A DNA stretch of 64,000 nucleotides, taken from IMG/VR virus record IMGVR_UViG_3300044641_009778; one strand, given 5' to 3'. This DNA is from an uncultured virus (IMG/VR IMGVR_UViG_3300044641_009778). Lineage: Duplodnaviria > Heunggongvirae > Uroviricota > Caudoviricetes. This document shows positions 28,465 through 57,754 of the stretch, piece after piece. Under the pieces are notes generated by a model, which was not told the DNA's origin, did no database searches, and worked only from the letters and a program-made list of their open reading frames with translations. The position numbers were made by a program, and so were the translations under genes. Each line of letters opens with the position of its first letter. Position 1 is the stretch's first letter.

Positions 28465-28884
28465 TTAATCAGTAACTTCTCGCCAGGTCTGATCGCCCAG
28501 CCACTGTATCTTGCAGACATATTCGTATTTATCGGGCGCGCCTGTGGTCCAATCATCTGGACCCATGTTGCTTAGACGACTAATGCCGTCGATGTGATCC
28601 CAGATTAGCCAGTAGAAACCGCCGGGATAGATCTGAAATCTATACTCAGCGGCATGCACAAGATCCGTGATCCAGAGTCGACGCTTGATGTCTTCGGCCT
28701 GCTTCTGCAATACCTTCACCAACTCCATGATGCGATTGTATTCCTGTTCGGCATTCATGCGCGCAGCGTTGATCATGAGATCTTTCTGCTGTTTGACCGG
28801 CACTAGCTCAAATTTCGGCGCACCAACATCCAGAGCATATTCTACGCTGCTTTTCTTCCAGGGATCGTACTCGGTAAGTTTCAT
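28465..28884 (-). CDS. DUF2452-like protein
   Basis: Y..DVGAPKF N-terminus, coiled coil, W-rich end. Confidence 0.65.
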   Translation of the reverse strand: MKLTEYDPWKKSSVEYALDVGAPKFELVPVKQQKDLMINAARMNAEQEYNRIMELVKVLQKQAEDIKRRLWITDLVHAAEYRFQIYPGGFYWLIWDHIDGISRLSNMGPDDWTTGAPDKYEYVCKIQWLGDQTWREVTD

Positions 28885-28890
28885 GGTGTC

Positions 28891-28966
28891 TGGTCCGACC
28901 GGCAGGATTCGAACCCACATCGGTACAAGGTAGAAGCTTGTTGCCTATCCATTCGGCCACGGTCGG
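28891..28966 (-). tRNA. tRNA-Arg(TCT)
   Basis: Cloverleaf; loop CTTCTAC; encoded CCA. Confidence 0.85.
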
Positions 28967-29927: not shown

Positions 29928-30398
29928 TTAAGCTGCCTTTAAACTTTTGATGCGATCTGCGGCATAGCTGGCTGCAAATGCTCGAGGTTTCACCATGGGT
30001 ACGACATTGCAGGTACCGCGTATATAGCCTATGGCTTCGTTGATTACGCAGCTCGATCCATGCAGTTCGCTGGGATTGATGTCGAGGTGTACTTCGACTT
30101 CACGATCCTCCAGCACATCGTGCAGCTTCTGATACAGTTCCGCAATCTTATAGACTTCGTTCATGAGTCGCATGCGCGGCCGATCCTTGCGATGTTCGTA
30201 ATCACGTTCGCGCTGCACTTCACCGAAGATTTTGCAACCATTGTTGCCGTTGATGTGCACCACAATGGCCAGAGTATAGTCTGCGTACCAGTCCTTGCCA
30301 ATTTGAAATCTATCGCTGTCGCCGCCGATGTAGATTTTTGTGGCCGGCGTCTGTGCTTCGATGAAACGTCGTACCTGTTCAATGTCAATTTTTCGCAT
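29928..30398 (-). CDS. RNase H-like (YkuK/DUF458-like) protein
   Basis: KIYIGGDS, EVHLDIN, AASYAAD. Confidence 0.8.
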   Translation of the reverse strand: MRKIDIEQVRRFIEAQTPATKIYIGGDSDRFQIGKDWYADYTLAIVVHINGNNGCKIFGEVQRERDYEHRKDRPRMRLMNEVYKIAELYQKLHDVLEDREVEVHLDINPSELHGSSCVINEAIGYIRGTCNVVPMVKPRAFAASYAADRIKSLKAA

Positions 30399-30408
30399 TG
30401 CTCGTCCT

Positions 30409-30483
30409 TGGAGCGGGTAGTCGGGTTCGAACCGACGACATTTTCCTTGGCAAGGAAACATTCTACCACTGAATTATACCCGC
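30409..30483 (-). tRNA. tRNA-Gly(GCC)
   Basis: TTTCC-TTGCCAA-GGAAA; U73; CCA. Confidence 0.9.
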
Positions 30484-31078: not shown

Positions 31079-31639
31079 TTACATTGTAGGACCATTACCA
31101 TTTTGAAACCCCACACTACCGCCTTCTTCTTTGATTCGTTTAATTACATCTTCAAATAAAACCGGACGATAATCATAGTGTTCCACGCACACACAATGAT
31201 AACGTGGATCAATCGCACCATCTTTCTTTACTCTATTGTAATGAAGATGTCCGTGAATATTGGTACCGAAACGACCCAGACTTTCTTCGTGCACCGGAAT
31301 ATGACTGAGTATCATTCCGTTCATTACATGATAGCCTCGCACATCGCGAAAATATTCCGTATATTCTTCGAGCCGAAAAATGTCGTGATTGCCTTTGATC
31401 AAAACTTTATCGCCATTGAGCCTGGAGAGAGTTTTAAGCGCCTTGCGGTTGATCACTACGTCGCCGAGATGATAGACCTTATCGTTGGGGCGCACAGTTT
31501 CGTTCCAGCGCCGCACCATTTCTTCGTCCATCTCCGCAGCATCATCCCAGGGTCGAAGCTTGGTGCCGTCGTCGCGAAGGAACCGGCACACGCCGCTGTG
31601 GCCAAAGTGTGTATCCGAAACTAAAAATACTGCGGGCAT
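31079..31639 (-). CDS. calcineurin-like phosphoesterase
   Basis: SDTHFGH, LGDV, GNHD, HGHLH. Confidence 0.9.
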   Translation of the reverse strand: MPAVFLVSDTHFGHSGVCRFLRDDGTKLRPWDDAAEMDEEMVRRWNETVRPNDKVYHLGDVVINRKALKTLSRLNGDKVLIKGNHDIFRLEEYTEYFRDVRGYHVMNGMILSHIPVHEESLGRFGTNIHGHLHYNRVKKDGAIDPRYHCVCVEHYDYRPVLFEDVIKRIKEEGGSVGFQNGNGPTM

Positions 31640-33389: not shown

Positions 33390-33476
33390 TGGTGGGTGCT
33401 CTCCGATTCGAACAGAGAAGGTCTGAGACAACAGATTTACAGTCTGCCCCCGATACCATTACGGGACTAAGCACCC
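33390..33476 (-). tRNA. tRNA-Tyr(GTA)
   Basis: GCAGA-CTGTAAA-TCTGT. Confidence 0.85.
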
Positions 33477-33483
33477 AAAACTC

Positions 33484-33560
33484 TGGAGTTGGCGATGGGA
33501 TTCGAACCCACATGAAACGGATTTGCAGTCCGTGGCCTAACCATTCAGCTACACACCAAC
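33484..33560 (-). tRNA. tRNA-Cys(GCA)
   Basis: ACGGA-CTGCAAA-TCCGT; U73; apparent 2-nt insertion before the D arm. Confidence 0.8.
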
Positions 33561-33561
33561 A

Positions 33562-33637
33562 TGGTAGGGGATACAGGACTCGAACCTGTGCGTGTCGGAA
33601 TCAAAATCCGATGCCTTACCAACTTGGCGAATCCCCA
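33562..33637 (-). tRNA. tRNA-Gln(TTG)
   Basis: TCGGA-TTTTGAT-TCCGA. Confidence 0.9.
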
Positions 33638-33642
33638 ACAAA

Positions 33643-33720
33643 CCATATTAAAGCACATTCTGTCGCCGTTTTTGCTACGCTGGTAACGACCAAGACCTCA
33701 AAGAATGTGCTTTAATATGG
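33643..33720 (-). ncRNA. tRNA-3'-linked long hairpin, copy 1
   Basis: 19-bp perfect inverted repeat starting with the CCA of tRNA-Lys. Confidence 0.6.
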
Positions 33721-33793
33721 TACGGGCAGAGGGGATTGAACCCACGACACACGGATTAAAAGTCCGCTGCTCTACCAACTGAGCTATACCCGC
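33718..33793 (-). tRNA. tRNA-Lys(TTT)
   Basis: Loop CTTTTAA. Confidence 0.9.
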
Positions 33794-33796
33794 ATA

Positions 33797-34018
33797 ATTG
33801 CTTAGGCCACGTCTTTCCACGGATCGCCCCTATGCTGGAGTTGTTACCCTGTCCGAACACTAATAGCGATTGCTGCGTAGTGTCCACGCTGCTATGTCGT
33901 CTGAAACACCGGAGACACCACATCGAAATGCAGAGTCTATGTTTCGCTAACGGTGCCATAGCCACCGGGATTCTCTCGTTTACCACACGCTACTTTCAGG
34001 AAAGTAGTAACCGGAACT
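33797..34018 (-). ncRNA. candidate ~220-nt structured ncRNA
   Basis: No convincing RBS-led ORF; several hairpins. Confidence 0.45.
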
Positions 34019-34021
34019 TTA

Positions 34022-34119
34022 TGGTGGTTGGGCGTCACGCCAACTTTCTACTTACCACAAGGATTCTCATTACAGGTTGTTTCAGAGCACAGCCACCATA
34101 CAGTGACCAAATCCCAACC
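34022..34119 (-). ncRNA. tRNA-like RNA with acceptor stem and ACCA end
   Basis: GGTTGGG...CCCAACC-A-CCA; non-canonical body. Confidence 0.5.
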
Positions 34120-34130
34120 TTGCTTCTTCA

Positions 34131-34216
34131 CCATAGTGAAGCACACTACCCTAGACAGCTACTTTGGGACGGGCTGGCCGATACCGGGACACCGCTCGAA
34201 ATGTACTTCACTATGG
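34131..34216 (-). ncRNA. tRNA-3'-linked long hairpin, copy 2
   Basis: 17-bp stem (two G-U pairs) starting with the CCA of tRNA-Glu. Confidence 0.6.
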
Positions 34217-34290
34217 TACACCGTAGGGGATTCGAACCCACTCTAGCCACCTTGAAAGGGTGGTGACCTCAACCAGATGTCTAACGGTGC
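34214..34290 (-). tRNA. tRNA-Glu(TTC)
   Basis: CCACC-CTTTCAA-GGTGG. Confidence 0.9.
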
Positions 34291-34332
34291 ATCGGTACCA
34301 AATTTTTAATGAACATCAACTACCATACTGCT

Positions 34333-34361
34333 ATTCTAGCACCACTTGAGCGTCGTGTCAA
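34333..34361 (-). promoter_or_regulatory. early promoter for the tRNA array
   Basis: TTGACA-N17 (ending TGC)-TAGAAT. Confidence 0.75.
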
Positions 34362-34367
34362 GCAGTT

Positions 34368-34580
34368 TTAGCTACGAAATATTCCTACTATGTAAATCAT
34401 CATCAATCCAGCGTTCACACAGATAAGATTGATGTCGCGGACTCGGATGCTCCAGGTCAAATACAACAAGCTACCGAGATTCAACAAATACACATTCAAG
34501 GGATCAATGCGAAAGCTGGTGCAAATCGCCCCGCCGAGCGTGGCTGCTAACGCTGTCCACTTAATAATATCATTTAACAT
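34368..34580 (-). CDS. small three-TM protein
   Basis: Hydrophobic; near-leaderless after promoter. Confidence 0.65.
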   Translation of the reverse strand: MLNDIIKWTALAATLGGAICTSFRIDPLNVYLLNLGSLLYLTWSIRVRDINLICVNAGLMMIYIVGIFRS

Positions 34581-34586
34581 ACACCC

Positions 34587-34614
34587 ATTGTATAGGAACG
34601 ATGCTAGATGTCAA
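34587..34614 (-). promoter_or_regulatory. early promoter (repeat class)
   Basis: TTGACA-TCTAGCATCGTTCCTA-TACAAT. Confidence 0.75.
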
Positions 34615-34647
34615 GCCCCGAATAACTCATTGATTTACAAGTATTTT

Positions 34648-34740
34648 TGGCGGAGGGCGGAGGAGTCGAACCCCATCCGCTTTTGGCAGAACCTGGTTTT
34701 CAAGGCCAGTCGCAGGACCATCCCCGCTGCATCACCCTCC
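34648..34740 (-). tRNA. tRNA-Ser(TGA)
   Basis: Loop CTTGAAA; long variable arm; G73. Confidence 0.85.
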
Positions 34741-34744
34741 AAGT

Positions 34745-34774
34745 AAAAACCCCAGATCTTTTGGATTCTGGGGT
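34745..34774 (-). terminator. intrinsic terminator immediately 5' of tRNA-Ser
   Basis: ACCCCAGA/TCTGGGGT stem plus T-tract. Confidence 0.7.
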
Positions 34775-34803
34775 CTTGGTAAAAACGTATATCTGTCGTG
34801 TAC

Positions 34804-34908
34804 CTAGATCCCCCAACCTCCATCCCAGCGTGTATTGAAGCCGTACTGCTCCGAGCCGGGGCAACTTGGCTTAATTAATGCTGGTGAAAGGGCGATGAGT
34901 TGATGCAC
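34804..34908 (-). CDS. putative 34-aa attenuator leader peptide
   Basis: AGGAG-N5-GTG; MHQLIALSPALIKPSCPGSEQYGFNTRWDGGWGI*. Confidence 0.55.
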   Translation of the reverse strand: MHQLIALSPALIKPSCPGSEQYGFNTRWDGGWGI

Positions 34909-48317: not shown

Positions 48318-48596
48318 TTAGGCAAATATATTTGACCATTGTTTGAGTTTGAGTTTTTTAGATTGTTTAGCAGATTCTAGGATGTCGGCGTTGAGTACGC
48401 CTTGGTCAATTAAAATGTCCACCATGGCCAAGACGTCGCCAATTTCCTGTTCTAACATGGCCCGGTGTGTGTACTGCATATCGGATTTGTAGTGTGCTGT
48501 GTGAAGGCCAAATCGTCGAATTTTGCTGACCTCTACTATAACCTCAGCGCATTCTTCTTGAAGGATACCCAAGGTTTCTTCTGTACGAGCGTTCAC
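48318..48596 (-). CDS. MazG-like NTP pyrophosphohydrolase
   Basis: EECAE...EIGDV. Confidence 0.75.
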   Translation of the reverse strand: MNARTEETLGILQEECAEVIVEVSKIRRFGLHTAHYKSDMQYTHRAMLEQEIGDVLAMVDILIDQGVLNADILESAKQSKKLKLKQWSNIFA

Positions 48597-49096
48597 GCAA
48601 ATAGATCCTCATTCCATTCGCGATGCCCTTCTCGAAACGCCATGTTGCTTTGCGTTTCTCGAACCTCGACTCGGTAACACCAGAGGCGCTCGGCTTCGCC
48701 TGGACCCCAGTAGTCTGGAATATAAACTCCGTTGACAAACTTATAGAGCTGATCCGCCAAACCTTCGCAGCCGAGTTTAGGCAAGATGGTGAGCTTGGCC
48801 AGATTCTTGGCCTGCAGCATTTTATAGGTTTCCAATTCTGGATCGTCTTCGGCCACCAGCAGAGTATGATCAAACTGACTCTCTAGTATGCCTTTGAGTT
48901 CTTTTAAACCACCGTAATCCGCTGCCCAGTTACGAACATCGAGATCGTTGGTGCCGAAATAAAACTTCATACTAAAACTATAACCATGAATTAGATTGCA
49001 ATGACTATCCGCACGCCATTGACGATAGGCGCAGGGAAATGCGTCATGATATTCTTTGGTGCTTACGTATTTGTAGGTGATTGCTTCTTTTGCCAT
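48593..49096 (-). CDS. queD: 6-carboxytetrahydropterin synthase
   Basis: CNLIHGY, DYGGLK, FDHT, GCE, VRET; own promoter 49132-49160. Confidence 0.9.
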   Translation of the reverse strand: MAKEAITYKYVSTKEYHDAFPCAYRQWRADSHCNLIHGYSFSMKFYFGTNDLDVRNWAADYGGLKELKGILESQFDHTLLVAEDDPELETYKMLQAKNLAKLTILPKLGCEGLADQLYKFVNGVYIPDYWGPGEAERLWCYRVEVRETQSNMAFREGHREWNEDLFA

Positions 49097-55940: not shown

Positions 55941-56612
55941 TTATTTCATTTTAGCAACGATGTCGTAGAATTCTTTCTTCAGGCTCTTGTCACTTTGGAA
56001 CACACCGCGCATGATCGCAGTAGTCATATCACTCTCGTGTTCTTTGACACCGCGATGAGTCATGCAGTGATGTTCGGCCTGAATCAGCACAGCCACACCT
56101 TCGGCCTGAGTTTCGGCTTCTACGGCATCGGCGATTTGTACGGTCATTTCTTCTTGGATCTGAGGACGGCTGGCAATCCAATCCGCAAGGCGATTGAACT
56201 TACTAAGTCCAATGACGTTCTTTCCAGGATAGACTCCGATATAGGCACGCCCCACAATATTTTGGAGGTGATGAGCACACGTAGAACGTATTGTGATGGG
56301 TCCGGTGACGTAGAGTTGATCGTATTCTGTGACATTGGGAAATGCGGTAATTTTTGGTGCAGCTCGATATCGGCCTCCGAAAGTTTCTTGCACAAACATC
56401 TTGGCCACGCGATGTGCGGTGTCCTGCGTATTATGATCATTGTCGGTATCGATGATCAGACTCTGCAGCACAGCCTCCATCTTCTTTGCTACTTCTTCGG
56501 TTAGTTTATCTAACTCACGGGGATGTTCGATAAATTCACTGATGTTATCATTACTAAAAAATCTTTTTCCGCTGGCTTGAATGCGCTGACGGATTTTATC
56601 GGACATTGCCAT
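55941..56612 (-). CDS. folE: GTP cyclohydrolase I
   Basis: STCAHH, GLSKFNR, QIQE, HHCMTHRG; own promoter 56642-56670. Confidence 0.95.
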   Translation of the reverse strand: MAMSDKIRQRIQASGKRFFSNDNISEFIEHPRELDKLTEEVAKKMEAVLQSLIIDTDNDHNTQDTAHRVAKMFVQETFGGRYRAAPKITAFPNVTEYDQLYVTGPITIRSTCAHHLQNIVGRAYIGVYPGKNVIGLSKFNRLADWIASRPQIQEEMTVQIADAVEAETQAEGVAVLIQAEHHCMTHRGVKEHESDMTTAIMRGVFQSDKSLKKEFYDIVAKMK

Positions 56613-56859
56613 TTTTGCTCCTTATAAAGATATTACGTAGTATTGTAGTGTATTTAGTAATGAAAGTCAATATACCCTGCCTTTTTCGCAGAGTCCAGCT
56701 ACCGTCGCCGTTGTTGATCCATTCCAGAGTATCGCCGATCTTCCAGTCCAGCCCCTTTAAAATTTCATCACTCAACGGTAAAACGTAGTCGCCACTTTCG
56801 TTGTCGTATTCAACAGTAACGGTCCAGCGTTTACTTACCAATGACGTTTCCAAAGACAT
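56596..56859 (-). CDS. AbrB/MazE-like small protein
   Basis: VLPLSDEIL..LDWKIGDTLEW. Confidence 0.65.
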   Translation of the reverse strand: MSLETSLVSKRWTVTVEYDNESGDYVLPLSDEILKGLDWKIGDTLEWINNGDGSWTLRKRQGILTFITKYTTILRNIFIRSKNGNVR

Positions 56860-57754
56860 AGCAATGATTCCTTGTAGACACCATGTAGCCGCGCTGCATG
56901 GCTTCGACAGCAATATCCGCAACCACGGAATTTTCCTGCGCATCCTTGGTTGCACCCACGGGCATGACCCAGATGTCCGGACTATAGAAACCAGCTTCAC
57001 CGAACATGCGTTGAATGCGATCTGCATGCCCATCTAATTCAGACCAACATTCCGCACTACCATTGCAGACAAATTTAAGAATCGATGTACTAAAGGTTTT
57101 TGTTGCATAGTCAAAAATAACATCATCCTTGACTGCGTCTTTTTCACCAGCCACTGTCCAGAGTTTAGGACTCATGGCCCAGTGCCAACGACTGCCACCA
57201 TCCTGTGGAAATTCTTCGTTGATAAATTCCTGCAGCTCTTCGGTTAAGGGGCGTGTGGCGTTGGTTTCTACCGTGACTGTGCGGGGAAGATTTCCTCGAG
57301 CCTTGAATTCCTGCAGTATGGCCAACATGGCTTTTTGCCACATCATGGGCTCGCCGCCGGTAAAACAAAGCTGTGTATCCTGGCCAGTTATGGGATGCAC
57401 CCATTCACCCTGCGGATTGGTGCTGTGCCGCAGTTGATCAGTCAGCAGATCACAGACTCGGCCAGCATCGGCATCGTGCGCCAGATTTTTATACTTGGCA
57501 CTCCAGCTGTAGCTTGAATCACAGCCATGATCCCACACCGGTAGATCTTCGATGCGTTTCACTGAATTGACATCAAAGCTCTGATAGGGCAGAACATAGG
57601 TTGCGGGATTGGTGGGATCCATCTGACCAAATCCGTTGCATTCTAGATTACAACCAAAGAAACGCAACCACACACTGGGTTTTCCTGCGAGCTCTGCTTC
57701 GCCTTGAAAACTATAAAAAATTTCGGAATATCGTATCTTTTTTGACATATTCAC
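56831..57754 (-). CDS. queE: 7-carboxy-7-deazaguanine synthase (radical SAM)
   Basis: EIFYSFQGE, GCNLEC...CDS, TGGEP, ETN, SPK; promoter 57770-57798. Confidence 0.93.
   Translation of the reverse strand: MNMSKKIRYSEIFYSFQGEAELAGKPSVWLRFFGCNLECNGFGQMDPTNPATYVLPYQSFDVNSVKRIEDLPVWDHGCDSSYSWSAKYKNLAHDADAGRVCDLLTDQLRHSTNPQGEWVHPITGQDTQLCFTGGEPMMWQKAMLAILQEFKARGNLPRTVTVETNATRPLTEELQEFINEEFPQDGGSRWHWAMSPKLWTVAGEKDAVKDDVIFDYATKTFSTSILKFVCNGSAECWSELDGHADRIQRMFGEAGFYSPDIWVMPVGATKDAQENSVVADIAVEAMQRGYMVSTRNHCYVFGNVIGK

What the first reader, a model, noticed from the sequence alone, without database searches (positions are those of the whole stretch)
33643..34216. Two homologous hairpin cassettes fused to the CCA ends of tRNA-Lys and tRNA-Glu, with different cargo loops
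Seen on the transcribed strand: CCAUAUUAAAGCACAUUCU...AGAAUGUGCUUUAAUAUGG (19 bp, 40-nt loop) and CCAUAGUGAAGUACAUU...AGUGUGCUUCACUAUGG (17 bp, 52-nt loop). Both stems begin with the tRNA's own CCA and share CCAUA-x-U-x-AAG-y-ACAUU. They differ by compensatory changes and G-U pairs, which indicates RNA-level selection. The loops are unrelated. Inference: a processing signal (RNase III-like) that either gates tRNA 3' maturation or releases variable small RNAs. Both tRNAs are U34-modified species of the kind attacked by PrrC/RloC-type anticodon nucleases.
Basis: partly seen in the sequence, partly recalled or inferred. Interest (0 to 1): 0.75.

Follow-up and report, generated by a model that had tools for sequence, protein, structure and literature searches.

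The report
Swappable RNA hairpin cassettes in phage tRNA arrays
The two hairpins belong to a large, undescribed family of RNA stem-loop cassettes that sit between the tRNA genes of uncultured lake phages and carry many different, individually conserved small RNA inserts, so they look like small RNAs released by tRNA processing, not mere tRNA trimming signals.

Summary
Both hairpins are real (20 bp/40-nt loop; about 18 bp/about 50-nt loop) and start at the CCA of tRNA-Lys and tRNA-Glu. They fold far better than shuffles. They belong to a phage-specific family: 111 distinct copies in the IMG/VR loci fetched, 1 hit in 185,579 bacterial and archaeal species genomes, none in cultured phages, no Rfam match.

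Copies lie only in tRNA/small-RNA arrays and in the tRNA sense. Stems covary, and variable pairs pass through G-U, never A-C. Loops fall into 90 unrelated classes. The same cassette (stem plus loop) turns up between unrelated flanks.

The loop is often better conserved than the stem. The Lys-cassette loop is a nearly invariant motif of about 44 nt found in 40 viral contigs, closed by unrelated stems. It occurs after tRNAs, in the excised intervening segment of phage two-piece tmRNA genes, inside hammerhead-like stems and after a GOLLD RNA. Cassettes follow at least 10 tRNA species, and some have no tRNA nearby.

Best reading (0.5): co-transcribed spacer cassettes cut out by ordinary tRNA end-processing, the stem acting as scaffold and the loop as the selected small RNA. 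A role for RNase III and any link to anticodon nucleases remain untested. The scan noted a comparable CCA-ended hairpin in another T4-like phage.

The parts
33642..33721 (-). Cassette 1 ('Lys cassette'): a 20-bp perfect closing stem that starts at discriminator A plus the CCA of tRNA-Lys, enclosing a 40-nt loop
   Evidence: Covariance model R1 scores it 105.6 bits.
33659..33704 (-). Cargo of cassette 1: a nearly invariant motif of about 44 nt (CUUUGAGGUC...GGCGACAG). A hairpin with loop CGUU could pair with AACG downstream to form a pseudoknot; this is inferred only.
   Evidence: 40 IMG/VR contigs, 31 distinct sequences, closed by stems of unrelated sequence.
34130..34217 (-). Cassette 2 ('Glu cassette'): a closing stem of about 18 bp with two U-G wobbles that starts at A plus the CCA of tRNA-Glu, enclosing a loop of about 50 nt
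   Evidence: The cargo is found in 7 IMG/VR contigs in two different contexts.
33718..33793 (-). tRNA-Lys(UUU); its 3' ACCA is the first four letters of the cassette 1 palindrome
34214..34290 (-). tRNA-Glu(UUC); its 3' ACCA starts cassette 2. It is the first tRNA behind the promoter-like site.
33562..33637 (-). tRNA-Gln(UUG), starting 6 nt after the 3' arm of cassette 1. Its RNase P site would free the 3' side of the cassette (inferred).
34333..34361 (-). Sigma-70-type promoter-like site, TTGACA-17-TAGAAT with a TG extension, 43 nt upstream of tRNA-Glu. The same site is present in the relative L002.
33794..34130 (-). 337-nt conserved non-coding spacer between cassette 2 and tRNA-Lys. In six other contigs its homologue is followed, not preceded, by the Glu-cargo hairpin.
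   Evidence: RNA-library contigs of 4 runs cover 33818-34064. No Rfam match.

Best explanation
The two hairpins are members of a phage-specific family of modular RNA cassettes embedded in tRNA/small-RNA arrays. Each cassette has a closing stem of about 17-22 bp and a cargo loop of 20-200 nt. The family consensus stem is CCAUAUUGAAGCACAUU paired with AGUGUGCUUCAAUAUGG. Where an RNA lies upstream, its first letters are that RNA's discriminator A and CCA.

The cassettes are transcribed with the tRNAs from a host-type promoter. I propose that they are cut out as a by-product of ordinary tRNA end-processing: 3' maturation at the upstream CCA, and RNase P at the next tRNA. This is how the intervening segment of a two-piece (permuted) tmRNA precursor is removed, and that segment is the commonest home of the window's Lys cargo. 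On this reading the stem is a structural scaffold and end-protector, and the cargo is the part under sequence selection, probably a small RNA that binds a protein or another RNA during infection. Cassettes and their cargos are exchanged between phages by recombination.

Shown: existence, family size, strand, covariation, cargo conservation, and the range of contexts. Inferred: excision, stability of the product, action in trans, and the mechanism of exchange.
For: Family and specificity:
- 127 non-nested hairpins, 111 distinct, in the fetched IMG/VR loci.
- 1 hit in genome contigs, on an 8.4-kb MAG contig. No hit better than chance in 50,697 phage records.
- In five whole viral records the paired arms occur only in the tRNA region.

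RNA-level selection:
- In 43 distinct hairpins oriented by their tRNA, stem positions 1-17 give 665 Watson-Crick, 54 G-U, 7 A-C and 5 other pairs.
- Pair 11 is GC 20 / GU 17 / AU 5, and pair 16 is UG 29 / CG 6 / UA 7. Neither is ever A-C.
- The strand with more pairs agrees with the tRNA strand in 81 of 91 cases.
- Closing stems of 18 Lys-cargo hairpins: 17 of 19 pairs change on both sides and 90.9% of cells are paired. 0 of 500 shuffles reach this, and slid controls give 35-55%.

Cargo is what is selected:
- Loops form 90 classes among 111 hairpins.
- Within a class the interior can be better kept than the arms: 31/33 against 21/34, 54/56 against 27/34, 43/44 against 30/34, 52/52 against 31/34.
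- The Lys cargo occurs in 40 contigs (31 distinct sequences). By their flanking letters, 16 are tmRNA intervening segments, 8 have family arms or follow a tRNA, 2 are hammerhead-like and 5 are other. All are in the sense of the neighbouring RNA.
- Rfam places the hairpin inside tmRNA_permuted/beta_tmRNA hits in 6 of 6 such loci scanned.

Excision precedent: permuted tmRNA transcripts are 'cleaved by tRNA processing enzymes' and the intervening sequence is absent from the mature tmRNA (passages of PMC11915505).

Independence from tRNAs: L014 has a cassette between two ORFs with no tRNA in the locus. Six contigs have the Glu cargo after the 337-nt RNA homologue and before a promoter-like sequence.

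Transcription: a promoter-like site lies upstream of tRNA-Glu, and there is no terminator-like site on the minus strand.
Against: - There is no direct evidence that the cassettes are excised or accumulate. The one read-laying run used assembled contigs only and shows nothing usable over the loops.
- Arm conservation is inflated by how the copies were found, through an arm pattern.
- Outside pairs 11 and 16, wobbles (8) and A-C mismatches (7) are balanced. The strand asymmetry therefore rests on two positions that could be inherited.
- The cargo's internal fold could not be tested by covariation, because it hardly varies. Its one freely varying position argues against one pair that I had drawn.
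- The extreme invariance of the cargo could also reflect recent spread.
- A purely cis role in 3'-end processing would also place the cargo next to CCA ends.
Confidence: 0.5

Rival explanations
1. RNase III-type processing stalk. The 17-22-bp double-stranded stem exists to be cut by host RNase III. The cut separates the upstream tRNA from what follows and starts its 3' trimming. The loop is a free passenger without a function.
For: - The basal helix is 17-21 bp for the 10th to 90th percentile, median 18, close to two helical turns.
- Hairpins often border non-tRNA spacers, where RNase P alone cannot separate the products.
- 42 of 111 abut a tRNA 3' end. A further 16 of 66 have a T-loop motif within 40 nt upstream, against 2 downstream.
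- From general knowledge: rRNA operon stalks and the phage T7 early RNase III sites work in this way.
Against: - Most tRNAs in the same arrays need no such hairpin; only 44 of 335 distinct tRNAs have a family hairpin.
- Nine cassettes sit between two closely flanking tRNAs, where RNase P would suffice.
- Cargo is conserved more than the stem in several pairs, and the Lys cargo is nearly invariant. A free passenger loop would not behave so.
- The same cargo sits in a hammerhead-like stem that needs no RNase III.
- Cleavage itself was not tested.
Confidence: 0.2
2. Selfish palindromic mini-element acting on DNA (like a MITE, REPIN or Correia element). It spreads within and between phage genomes and is merely tolerated because it lands in processed spacers.
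For: - The same cassette (arms plus loop, 88-100% identical) lies between unrelated flanks, and homology breaks exactly at A|CCATA...TATGG|T in 8 of 8 pairs examined.
- The near-identical relative L001 has 3 differences in the roughly 620 aligned columns outside the hairpins. Yet the interior of its Lys cassette is wholly different, and the Glu cassette carries a compensated arm change.
- Copy number varies from 1 to 6 per array.
Against: - No target-site duplication: the flanks only extend the palindrome by A...T.
- Copies are confined to tRNA/small-RNA arrays in five whole records, including a 400-kb record rated complete.
- One orientation prevails: 81 of 91, T-loop motifs in loops 11 sense against 0 antisense, and all Lys-cargo contexts in sense.
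- Loops are unrelated between copies (90 classes), unlike copies of a master element.
- No gene is shared by all nine array regions compared.
Confidence: 0.15
3. Cis-acting folding or 3'-end element. The cassette, cargo included, helps the neighbouring stable RNA (tRNA, tmRNA acceptor piece, GOLLD, the 337-nt RNA) to fold or to obtain and keep its 3' end. It is degraded afterwards.
For: - The cassette always lies directly 3' of a structured RNA end or beside a cleavage site.
- In six contigs the hairpin ends a non-coding RNA unit just before the next promoter-like sequence.
- The Rfam beta_tmRNA consensus for the intervening segment begins cAAGggCAUUcc, which resembles the family arm AAGCACAUUC. 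This suggests a conserved processing context.
Against: - In the hammerhead-like context the cargo sits in a peripheral stem loop, not at a 3' end.
- L014 has the cassette between two ORFs.
- There is no U-tract, so it is not an intrinsic terminator.
- Ninety unrelated cargo classes are hard to reconcile with one cis function.
Confidence: 0.15

Closest known systems
Intervening sequence (IVS) of circularly permuted, two-piece tmRNA genes (Rfam RF04321, RF01850)
   Same: A hairpin lies directly after an encoded ...ACCA 3' end and a few nt before the 5' end of the next RNA piece, and is removed by tRNA-processing enzymes (passages of PMC11915505). The window's Lys cargo itself sits in such segments in 16 of 31 distinct contexts. 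The Rfam consensus IVS start resembles the family arm.
   Different: In the window the flanks are two ordinary tRNAs (Lys, Gln) or a tRNA and a 337-nt RNA, not the two tmRNA pieces. In the family the CCA itself is paired into the stem, and the cargos are very diverse.
Functional RNAs released from tRNA operon spacers (E. coli 3'ETS-leuZ sponge RNA; recalled, no paper read here)
   Same: A non-tRNA RNA is carried in the spacer or trailer of a polycistronic tRNA transcript and would be released by tRNA maturation.
   Different: Here the RNAs sit on a common hairpin scaffold, occur in many cargo classes and are exchanged between phages. No target is known: the window loops show no complementarity above chance to the window.
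tRNA-linked pre-miRNA hairpins of murine gammaherpesvirus 68 (TMERs; recalled, no paper read here)
   Same: Viral tRNA-like genes are followed directly by stem-loops, which are set free by a tRNA 3'-processing enzyme.
   Different: That is a eukaryotic virus with pol III transcription and Dicer processing. The functional part there is the stem, whereas here it seems to be the loop.
RNase III processing stalks (rRNA operons, phage T7 early RNA sites; recalled)
   Same: Double-stranded stems of about two helical turns punctuate a polycistronic transcript. In T7 the sites also resemble each other in sequence.
   Different: Cleavage is untested here. Cargo conservation and contexts without a tRNA are not expected for a simple cutting mark.
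REPIN / MITE / Correia-type palindromic mobile elements (review PMC10969869, seen in a search listing only)
   Same: Conserved inverted arms, a variable centre, and the same unit in different flanks.
   Different: No target duplication, one orientation, restriction to RNA arrays, unrelated centres, and no cognate transposase seen.
Phage T4 stable RNAs C and D in the tRNA cluster, and the PeSL mobile cassettes of T4-type phages (recalled)
   Same: Non-tRNA stable RNAs are co-transcribed in a T4-type tRNA cluster, and conserved stem-loops mark modules that are shuffled between T4-type genomes.
   Different: No sequence or Rfam relation was found. PeSLs flank protein genes and include a promoter.

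Membership tests
Any Rfam 15 family | Covariance-model match at or above the gathering score | tested here: not met
   The only match over the hairpins is mir-7552, 26 bits against a gathering score of 59, E 0.84. Related loci gave nothing at their hairpins apart from chance miRNA-like hits.
RNase III processing site | Uninterrupted double-stranded RNA of about two helical turns | tested here: met
   20 bp and about 18 bp in the window. Family median 18 bp, 17-21 bp for the 10th to 90th percentile.
RNase III processing site | Staggered cleavage by RNase III within the stem | not testable with these tools
   Only assembled contigs of RNA libraries were available, with no read ends.
MITE / REPIN-type mobile element | Terminal inverted repeats, and the same unit in unrelated flanks | tested here: met
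MITE / REPIN-type mobile element | Target-site duplication, or dispersal over the genome in both orientations | tested here: not met
   No direct repeat at the ends. Arms occur only in the tRNA region of five whole records. Orientation agrees with the tRNA strand in 81 of 91.
MITE / REPIN-type mobile element | A cognate transposase or RAYT in the genome | tested here: inconclusive
   None among 24 + 56 window ORFs scanned. No gene is shared by all nine array regions. The genomes are incomplete.
Permuted tmRNA intervening sequence | Lies between the CCA end of the acceptor piece and the 5' end of the coding piece | tested here: not met
   The window cassettes are flanked by tRNA-Lys/tRNA-Gln and by tRNA-Glu/the 337-nt RNA. 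The homologous cargo does lie in such segments elsewhere.
Intrinsic terminator | G+C-rich stem followed by a U run | tested here: not met
   No terminator-like site on the minus strand in 33500-34900. A tRNA follows 6 nt after cassette 1.
Self-cleaving ribozyme | A conserved catalytic core shared by the copies | tested here: not met
   Loops are unrelated, 90 classes. There is no ribozyme hit at the window hairpins. The hammerhead-like cores seen in L212 and L228 lie outside the cargo.
Spacer-derived small RNA of a tRNA operon | Encoded in a spacer or trailer of a polycistronic tRNA transcript | tested here: met
Spacer-derived small RNA of a tRNA operon | Accumulates as a discrete RNA and acts on a target | not testable with these tools
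   No raw reads were available. No complementarity above chance between the window loops and the window.

The most novel reading that the evidence does not exclude
Phage tRNA arrays double as launch pads for an exchangeable library of small structured RNAs. A common hairpin scaffold, derived from the excised segment of two-piece tmRNA genes, lets any cargo be expressed and trimmed by the host's tRNA machinery without a promoter or terminator of its own. Phages trade these cargos (at least 90 classes) much as integrons trade gene cassettes. The nearly invariant 44-nt Lys cargo would then be a new aptamer-like or decoy RNA aimed at a conserved host or defence factor.
Probability: 0.25. Interest if true: 0.9.

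Novelty: new variant of a known kind. Interest (0 to 1): 0.72.

Why it matters
Large phages carry tRNA arrays whose non-tRNA content is mostly unexplained; GOLLD, ROOL and T4 RNAs C and D are examples. This finding gives a defined, abundant and easily searched class of elements in those arrays. It shows a scaffold-plus-cargo design, and it shows that the cargos are individually conserved and move between contexts: tRNA trailers, tmRNA intervening segments, hammerhead-like stems and GOLLD flanks.

If the cargos act in trans, this is a new route by which phages express small RNAs. It would also be a ready-made natural design for tRNA-punctuated RNA expression. If they act in cis, they reveal an unrecognised signal for making CCA 3' ends and for maturing two-piece tmRNA. 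Either way the 44-nt motif is a concrete new RNA to test. The beta-type two-piece tmRNAs that carry the same cargo also hint at the host group of these lake phages.

Tried and rejected
- Whole genome of the window: none is held.
- Cultured relatives: blastn against 50,697 phage records found only tRNA-sized pieces, the best covering 19% of the query. A family hairpin used as query gave 6 chance-level hits, E of 2 or more.
- RNA evidence: of the 24 runs listed, the 5 RNA runs each held 5-7% of the sampled words. Laying four of them (assembled contigs only) gave mostly tRNA look-alikes from other organisms and nothing usable over the two loops. I draw no conclusion from the lack of cover there.
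- Loop complementarity to the window: no match beyond 10-nt exact or 13-nt near-exact chance matches.
- A dedicated protein: no RNase III, transposase or homing nuclease among the window ORFs scanned. The PF04308 RNase H-like gene inside the array is present in only 4 of 9 array regions compared.
- Is the 337-nt spacer a GOLLD RNA? No Rfam hit in the window or in loci with partial similarity.
- Cargo in bacteria: the Lys-cargo core with up to 2 mismatches was not found in the 401 genomes sampled from the class of G006.
- Covariance model of the Lys cargo: only the three known carriers among 78 sources.
- Considered from memory and dropped without a test: a MotA-box or promoter reading of the 3' arm, protelomerase target sites, integron attC sites, and a preQ1-type riboswitch. 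Rfam gave no hit for the last.
- Papers: four full-text searches listed no description of such hairpins. This is not proof of absence. PMC516066, on beta-type two-piece tmRNA, is not held.
Full report
**Setting.** The window is part of a T4-like phage. It encodes family B DNA polymerase, UvsX, UvsW, UvsY, the gp44/62 clamp loader, gp45, RegA, the gp55 late sigma factor, the gp23-type major head protein, Hsp20 and 2OG-Fe(II) oxygenases. No whole genome is held for it, and no cultured phage record resembles the region beyond tRNA-sized pieces. DNA runs that hold the stretch are labelled freshwater or lake metagenomes. ARAGORN finds 22 tRNA genes at 28.9-34.3 kb, all on the minus strand. Rfam adds two long-arm tRNA-like genes, at 33394-33476 and 34652-34740. 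A promoter-like site, TTGACA-17-TAGAAT with a TG extension, lies 43 nt upstream of tRNA-Glu. No terminator-like site lies on the minus strand in 33500-34900.

- Cassette 1 (33642-33721) has 20-nt arms that are 100% complementary, with 40 nt between them.
- Cassette 2 (34130-34217) has 16-nt arms at 94%. As minus-strand RNA it extends to 18 pairs with two U-G wobbles.
- Both fold far better than shuffled sequence (z -6.2 and -4.3; 0 of 200 shuffles each).
- Each begins with the discriminator A and the CCA of its tRNA. Cassette 1 ends 6 nt before tRNA-Gln.
- These are the only copies of the arm motif in the 64 kb.

**A large phage-specific family.** In those loci plus 80 loci around Hsp20 relatives, a script found 127 non-nested hairpins of the form CCATA...TATGG with at least 13 pairs; 111 are distinct.
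- The consensus is CCAUAUUGAAGCACAUU, then a loop, then AGUGUGCUUCAAUAUGG. Total length runs from 59 to 223 nt (median 90), and the basal helix has a median of 18 bp.
- A two-arm pattern found a single hit in one genome each of 185,579 bacterial and archaeal species, on an 8.4-kb MAG contig that carries tRNAs.
- A family hairpin found nothing better than chance in 50,697 cultured-phage records.
- Rfam 15 has no family for it.
- In five whole viral records, including a 400-kb one rated complete, paired arms occur only within the tRNA region. Each array of 20-24 tRNAs holds 1-6 cassettes.
- Caveat: because the copies were found through an arm pattern, arm conservation is overstated. Extra copies in the same loci are more divergent (for example CCAUAAGCAUGACAAUC). 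Unrelated hairpins that start at CCA also exist, after a tRNA-Leu and a tRNA-Asn.

**The structure is selected on the transcribed strand.** I oriented 43 distinct hairpins by the tRNA they abut.
- Stem positions 1-17 hold 665 Watson-Crick pairs, 54 G-U, 7 A-C and 5 others.
- The wobbles concentrate at pair 11 (GC 20, GU 17, AU 5) and pair 16 (UG 29, CG 6, UA 7). These pairs move between two Watson-Crick states through G-U and never through A-C, the path expected for RNA.
- Outside those two pairs, wobbles (8) and A-C mismatches (7) are balanced, so this argument rests on two positions.
- The strand with more pairs agrees with the tRNA strand of the locus in 81 of 91 cases.
- Eighteen hairpins share the Lys cargo but have closing stems of quite different sequence. 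Among them 17 of 19 stem pairs show changes on both sides and 90.9% of cells are paired. No shuffle of 500 reaches this, and slid controls give 35-55%.

**Not only Lys and Glu, and not only tRNAs.**
- Nearly all tRNAs of these phages encode CCA (321 of 335 distinct), so the shared CCA is the tRNA's own.
- Family hairpins follow Glu-UUC (13 of 30), Lys-UUU (7 of 18), Gln-UUG (4 of 13), Ile-GAU (5 of 13), three Leu species (8 of 26), Tyr (4 of 13), Thr-UGU (2 of 16) and Gly-UCC (1 of 16). None of the other 18 named anticodon species has one.
- Glu, Lys and Gln are over-represented (24 of 61 against 20 of 274; Fisher 3e-9). Orthologous sites are counted repeatedly, however, and the sample was chosen through the hairpins.
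- Of the 111 distinct hairpins, 42 abut a tRNA 3' end, 20 are followed by a tRNA within 16 nt, and 58 have neither by ARAGORN.
- Of 66 non-abutting copies with enough flank, 16 have a T-loop motif within 40 nt upstream, against 2 downstream. Some of these follow tRNAs or tRNA-like ends that ARAGORN missed.
- In L014 a cassette lies between two ORFs with no tRNA in the 12-kb locus. Its CCA-UAG provides the stop codon of the upstream gene.

**Cassettes behave as discrete, exchangeable units.**
- Loops fall into 90 similarity classes, 71 of them singletons.
- In 8 of 8 pairs of hairpins with related loops, homology covers arms plus loop and stops exactly at A|CCAUA...UAUGG|U, and the flanks are unrelated. 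One unit follows tRNA-Lys and precedes tRNA-Met in one contig, but follows a non-tRNA sequence and precedes tRNA-Ser in another.
- The near-identical relative L001 differs from the window at 3 positions in the roughly 620 aligned columns outside the hairpins. Yet the interior of its Lys cassette is unrelated, and its Glu cassette has the same loop with a compensated change at pair 6 (G-C against U-A) and a change at pair 12.
- There is no target-site duplication.

**The cargo is the conserved part.**
- Within loop classes the interior can be better kept than the arms: 31/33 against 21/34, 54/56 against 27/34, 43/44 against 30/34, 52/52 against 31/34. In each case the arms remain fully compensated.
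- The 24-nt core of the Lys cargo occurs in 21 IMG/VR contigs. A pattern that leaves 14 central positions free finds 40 contigs with 31 distinct sequences. About 44 nt (CUUUGAGGUCUUGGUCGUUACCAGCGUAGCAAAAACGGCGACAG) hardly vary, while the closing stems are unrelated.
- Judged by the flanking letters, 16 of the 31 lie between ...UCCACCA and GGGG..., 8 have family arms or follow a tRNA, 2 lie in the third stem of a hammerhead-like core (CUGAUGAG...CGAAAC...GUC), and 5 are in other contexts.
- Rfam confirms tmRNA_permuted/beta_tmRNA hits spanning the hairpin in the 6 such loci scanned. It gives a weak hammerhead hit in L212 (30.3 bits, below threshold).
- In L003 the same cargo, 100% identical over 40 nt, follows a complete GOLLD RNA (228 bits) that has tRNA-Lys embedded in it.
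- All contexts are in the sense of the neighbouring RNA.
- The motif could form a small hairpin whose CGUU loop pairs with AACG downstream. The sequence varies too little to test this, and the one freely varying position argues against one pair that I had drawn.
- The Glu cargo occurs in 7 contigs. One is L001's own contig, where it follows tRNA-Glu as in the window. In the other six it follows a homologue of the window's 337-nt spacer RNA and precedes a promoter-like sequence, with different outer arms.
- About a tenth of loops carry a T-loop motif, always in sense: 11 against 0.

[quoted passage not shown] The window's cassette 1 has the same layout: an ...ACCA end, a hairpin, a few nt, then the 5' end of the next tRNA-type RNA. 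It even carries the same cargo. The Rfam consensus for the beta-type intervening segment starts cAAGggCAUUcc, which resembles the family arm AAGCACAUUC.

I therefore read the cassettes as spacer RNAs that are transcribed with the array and set free by 3' maturation at the upstream CCA and by RNase P at the downstream RNA. On this reading the stem serves as scaffold and protection, and the cargo is the selected small RNA. The diversity and exchange of cargos, their conservation across unrelated stems, and the contexts without tRNAs favour this over a bare cutting mark. A DNA transposon is disfavoured by the single orientation, the restriction to RNA arrays, the lack of target duplication and the unrelated centres. 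I could not test excision, product stability or any target. A cis role in end formation remains a serious rival, and RNase III may well be one of the enzymes involved.

**Comparison and novelty.** The closest known things are:
- the tmRNA intervening sequence (same layout and, for one cargo, the same sequence);
- spacer-derived RNAs of tRNA operons;
- RNase III stalks;
- palindromic mobile elements.

The window's cassettes fail the defining position of a tmRNA intervening sequence. They lack the target duplication and dispersal of MITEs, lack a U-tract, and match no Rfam family. Four full-text searches listed no description. This does not prove that none exists, and PMC516066 could not be read. 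I did not test that case. I rate the finding as a new variant of a known kind (spacer RNAs and processing hairpins of stable-RNA operons), with a real chance that it is a new system for expressing and exchanging small RNAs.

Noticed in passing
window 33794-34130 (minus strand): A 337-nt non-coding spacer between cassette 2 and tRNA-Lys. It is 99% identical in L001. Homologues in six other IMG/VR contigs stand alone after a protein gene and are followed by the Glu-cargo hairpin. There are partial matches in L082, L092, L181, L166 and L208, and no Rfam hit. Contigs of four RNA libraries from four studies cover 33818-34064, one at word depth 480-900; DNA carry-over is not excluded. It is probably a new structured RNA.
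   Followed up: partly
L003 4804-5263; L119 1-109: A complete GOLLD RNA (228 bits, E 1.7e-63) with tRNA-Lys embedded in it lies in the tRNA array of a relative (Hsp20 74% identical). It is followed at once by a hairpin carrying the window's Lys cargo. A partial GOLLD 5' end lies in L119.
   Followed up: partly
L213, L217, L219, L223, L225, L231 (about 320-600); L229 579-815; L239 1501-1932: Viral contigs carry circularly permuted, beta-type two-piece tmRNA genes (Rfam 85-150 bits). Their intervening segment holds the 44-nt motif, except that in L229 the motif lies upstream of the tmRNA gene. The MAG G006 (L239) has such a gene with an intervening hairpin of about 145 nt and a different cargo. 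This is a hint that hosts of these lake phages use beta-type two-piece tmRNA.
   Followed up: partly
L212 about 340-440; L228 about 340-440: Hammerhead-like cores (CUGAUGAG / CUGACGAG ... CGAAAC ... GUC) whose third stem is capped by the 44-nt motif. A tRNA-like sequence follows the predicted cleavage site. The Rfam score is below threshold (30.3 bits in L212).
   Followed up: partly
L127 1516-1587, L081 2061-2133, L113 619-690, L002 7763-7839: A recurring small RNA motif of about 72 nt (GGUGGUAUGUAG - hairpin - GAGGACCGGGAUUCC - hairpin) with a covarying outer helix, flanked on both sides by family hairpins. No Rfam match.
   Followed up: no
L002 8260-8318, L115 95-142, L109 after 1381; starts seen in L173 and L204: A recurring motif of about 45 nt (ACCCAACUAACUGUGAUAC - hairpin - GGUAGCGGUU) directly after family hairpins.
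   Followed up: no
L081 243-440, L115 1765-1958, L118 619-814: Group I introns (Rfam 53-71 bits, above threshold) inside the tRNA arrays of cassette-bearing phages.
   Followed up: no
window 33394-33476 and 34652-34740 (minus strand): Two long-variable-arm tRNA-like genes missed by ARAGORN. By eye their anticodons read GUA (Tyr) and UGA (Ser). Rfam scores them only against the tRNA-Sec model (30 and 38 bits).
   Followed up: no
window 29928-30461, 31079-31639, 28465-28920 (minus strand): Protein genes embedded in the tRNA array: a PF04308 RNase H-like protein (also present in 3 of 8 other array regions compared), a metallophosphoesterase and a DUF2452 protein.
   Followed up: partly
window 48593-49096, 55941-56612, 56831-57754: QueD-like, GTP cyclohydrolase and QueE-like genes. 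This is a 7-deazaguanine pathway, which could serve DNA or tRNA modification.
   Followed up: no
L111 957-1213; L116 2363-2620: Long hairpins of unrelated sequence that also start exactly at the discriminator plus CCA: 20 bp after tRNA-Leu-UAA and 16 bp after tRNA-Asn. The design may therefore be wider than this one sequence family.
   Followed up: no
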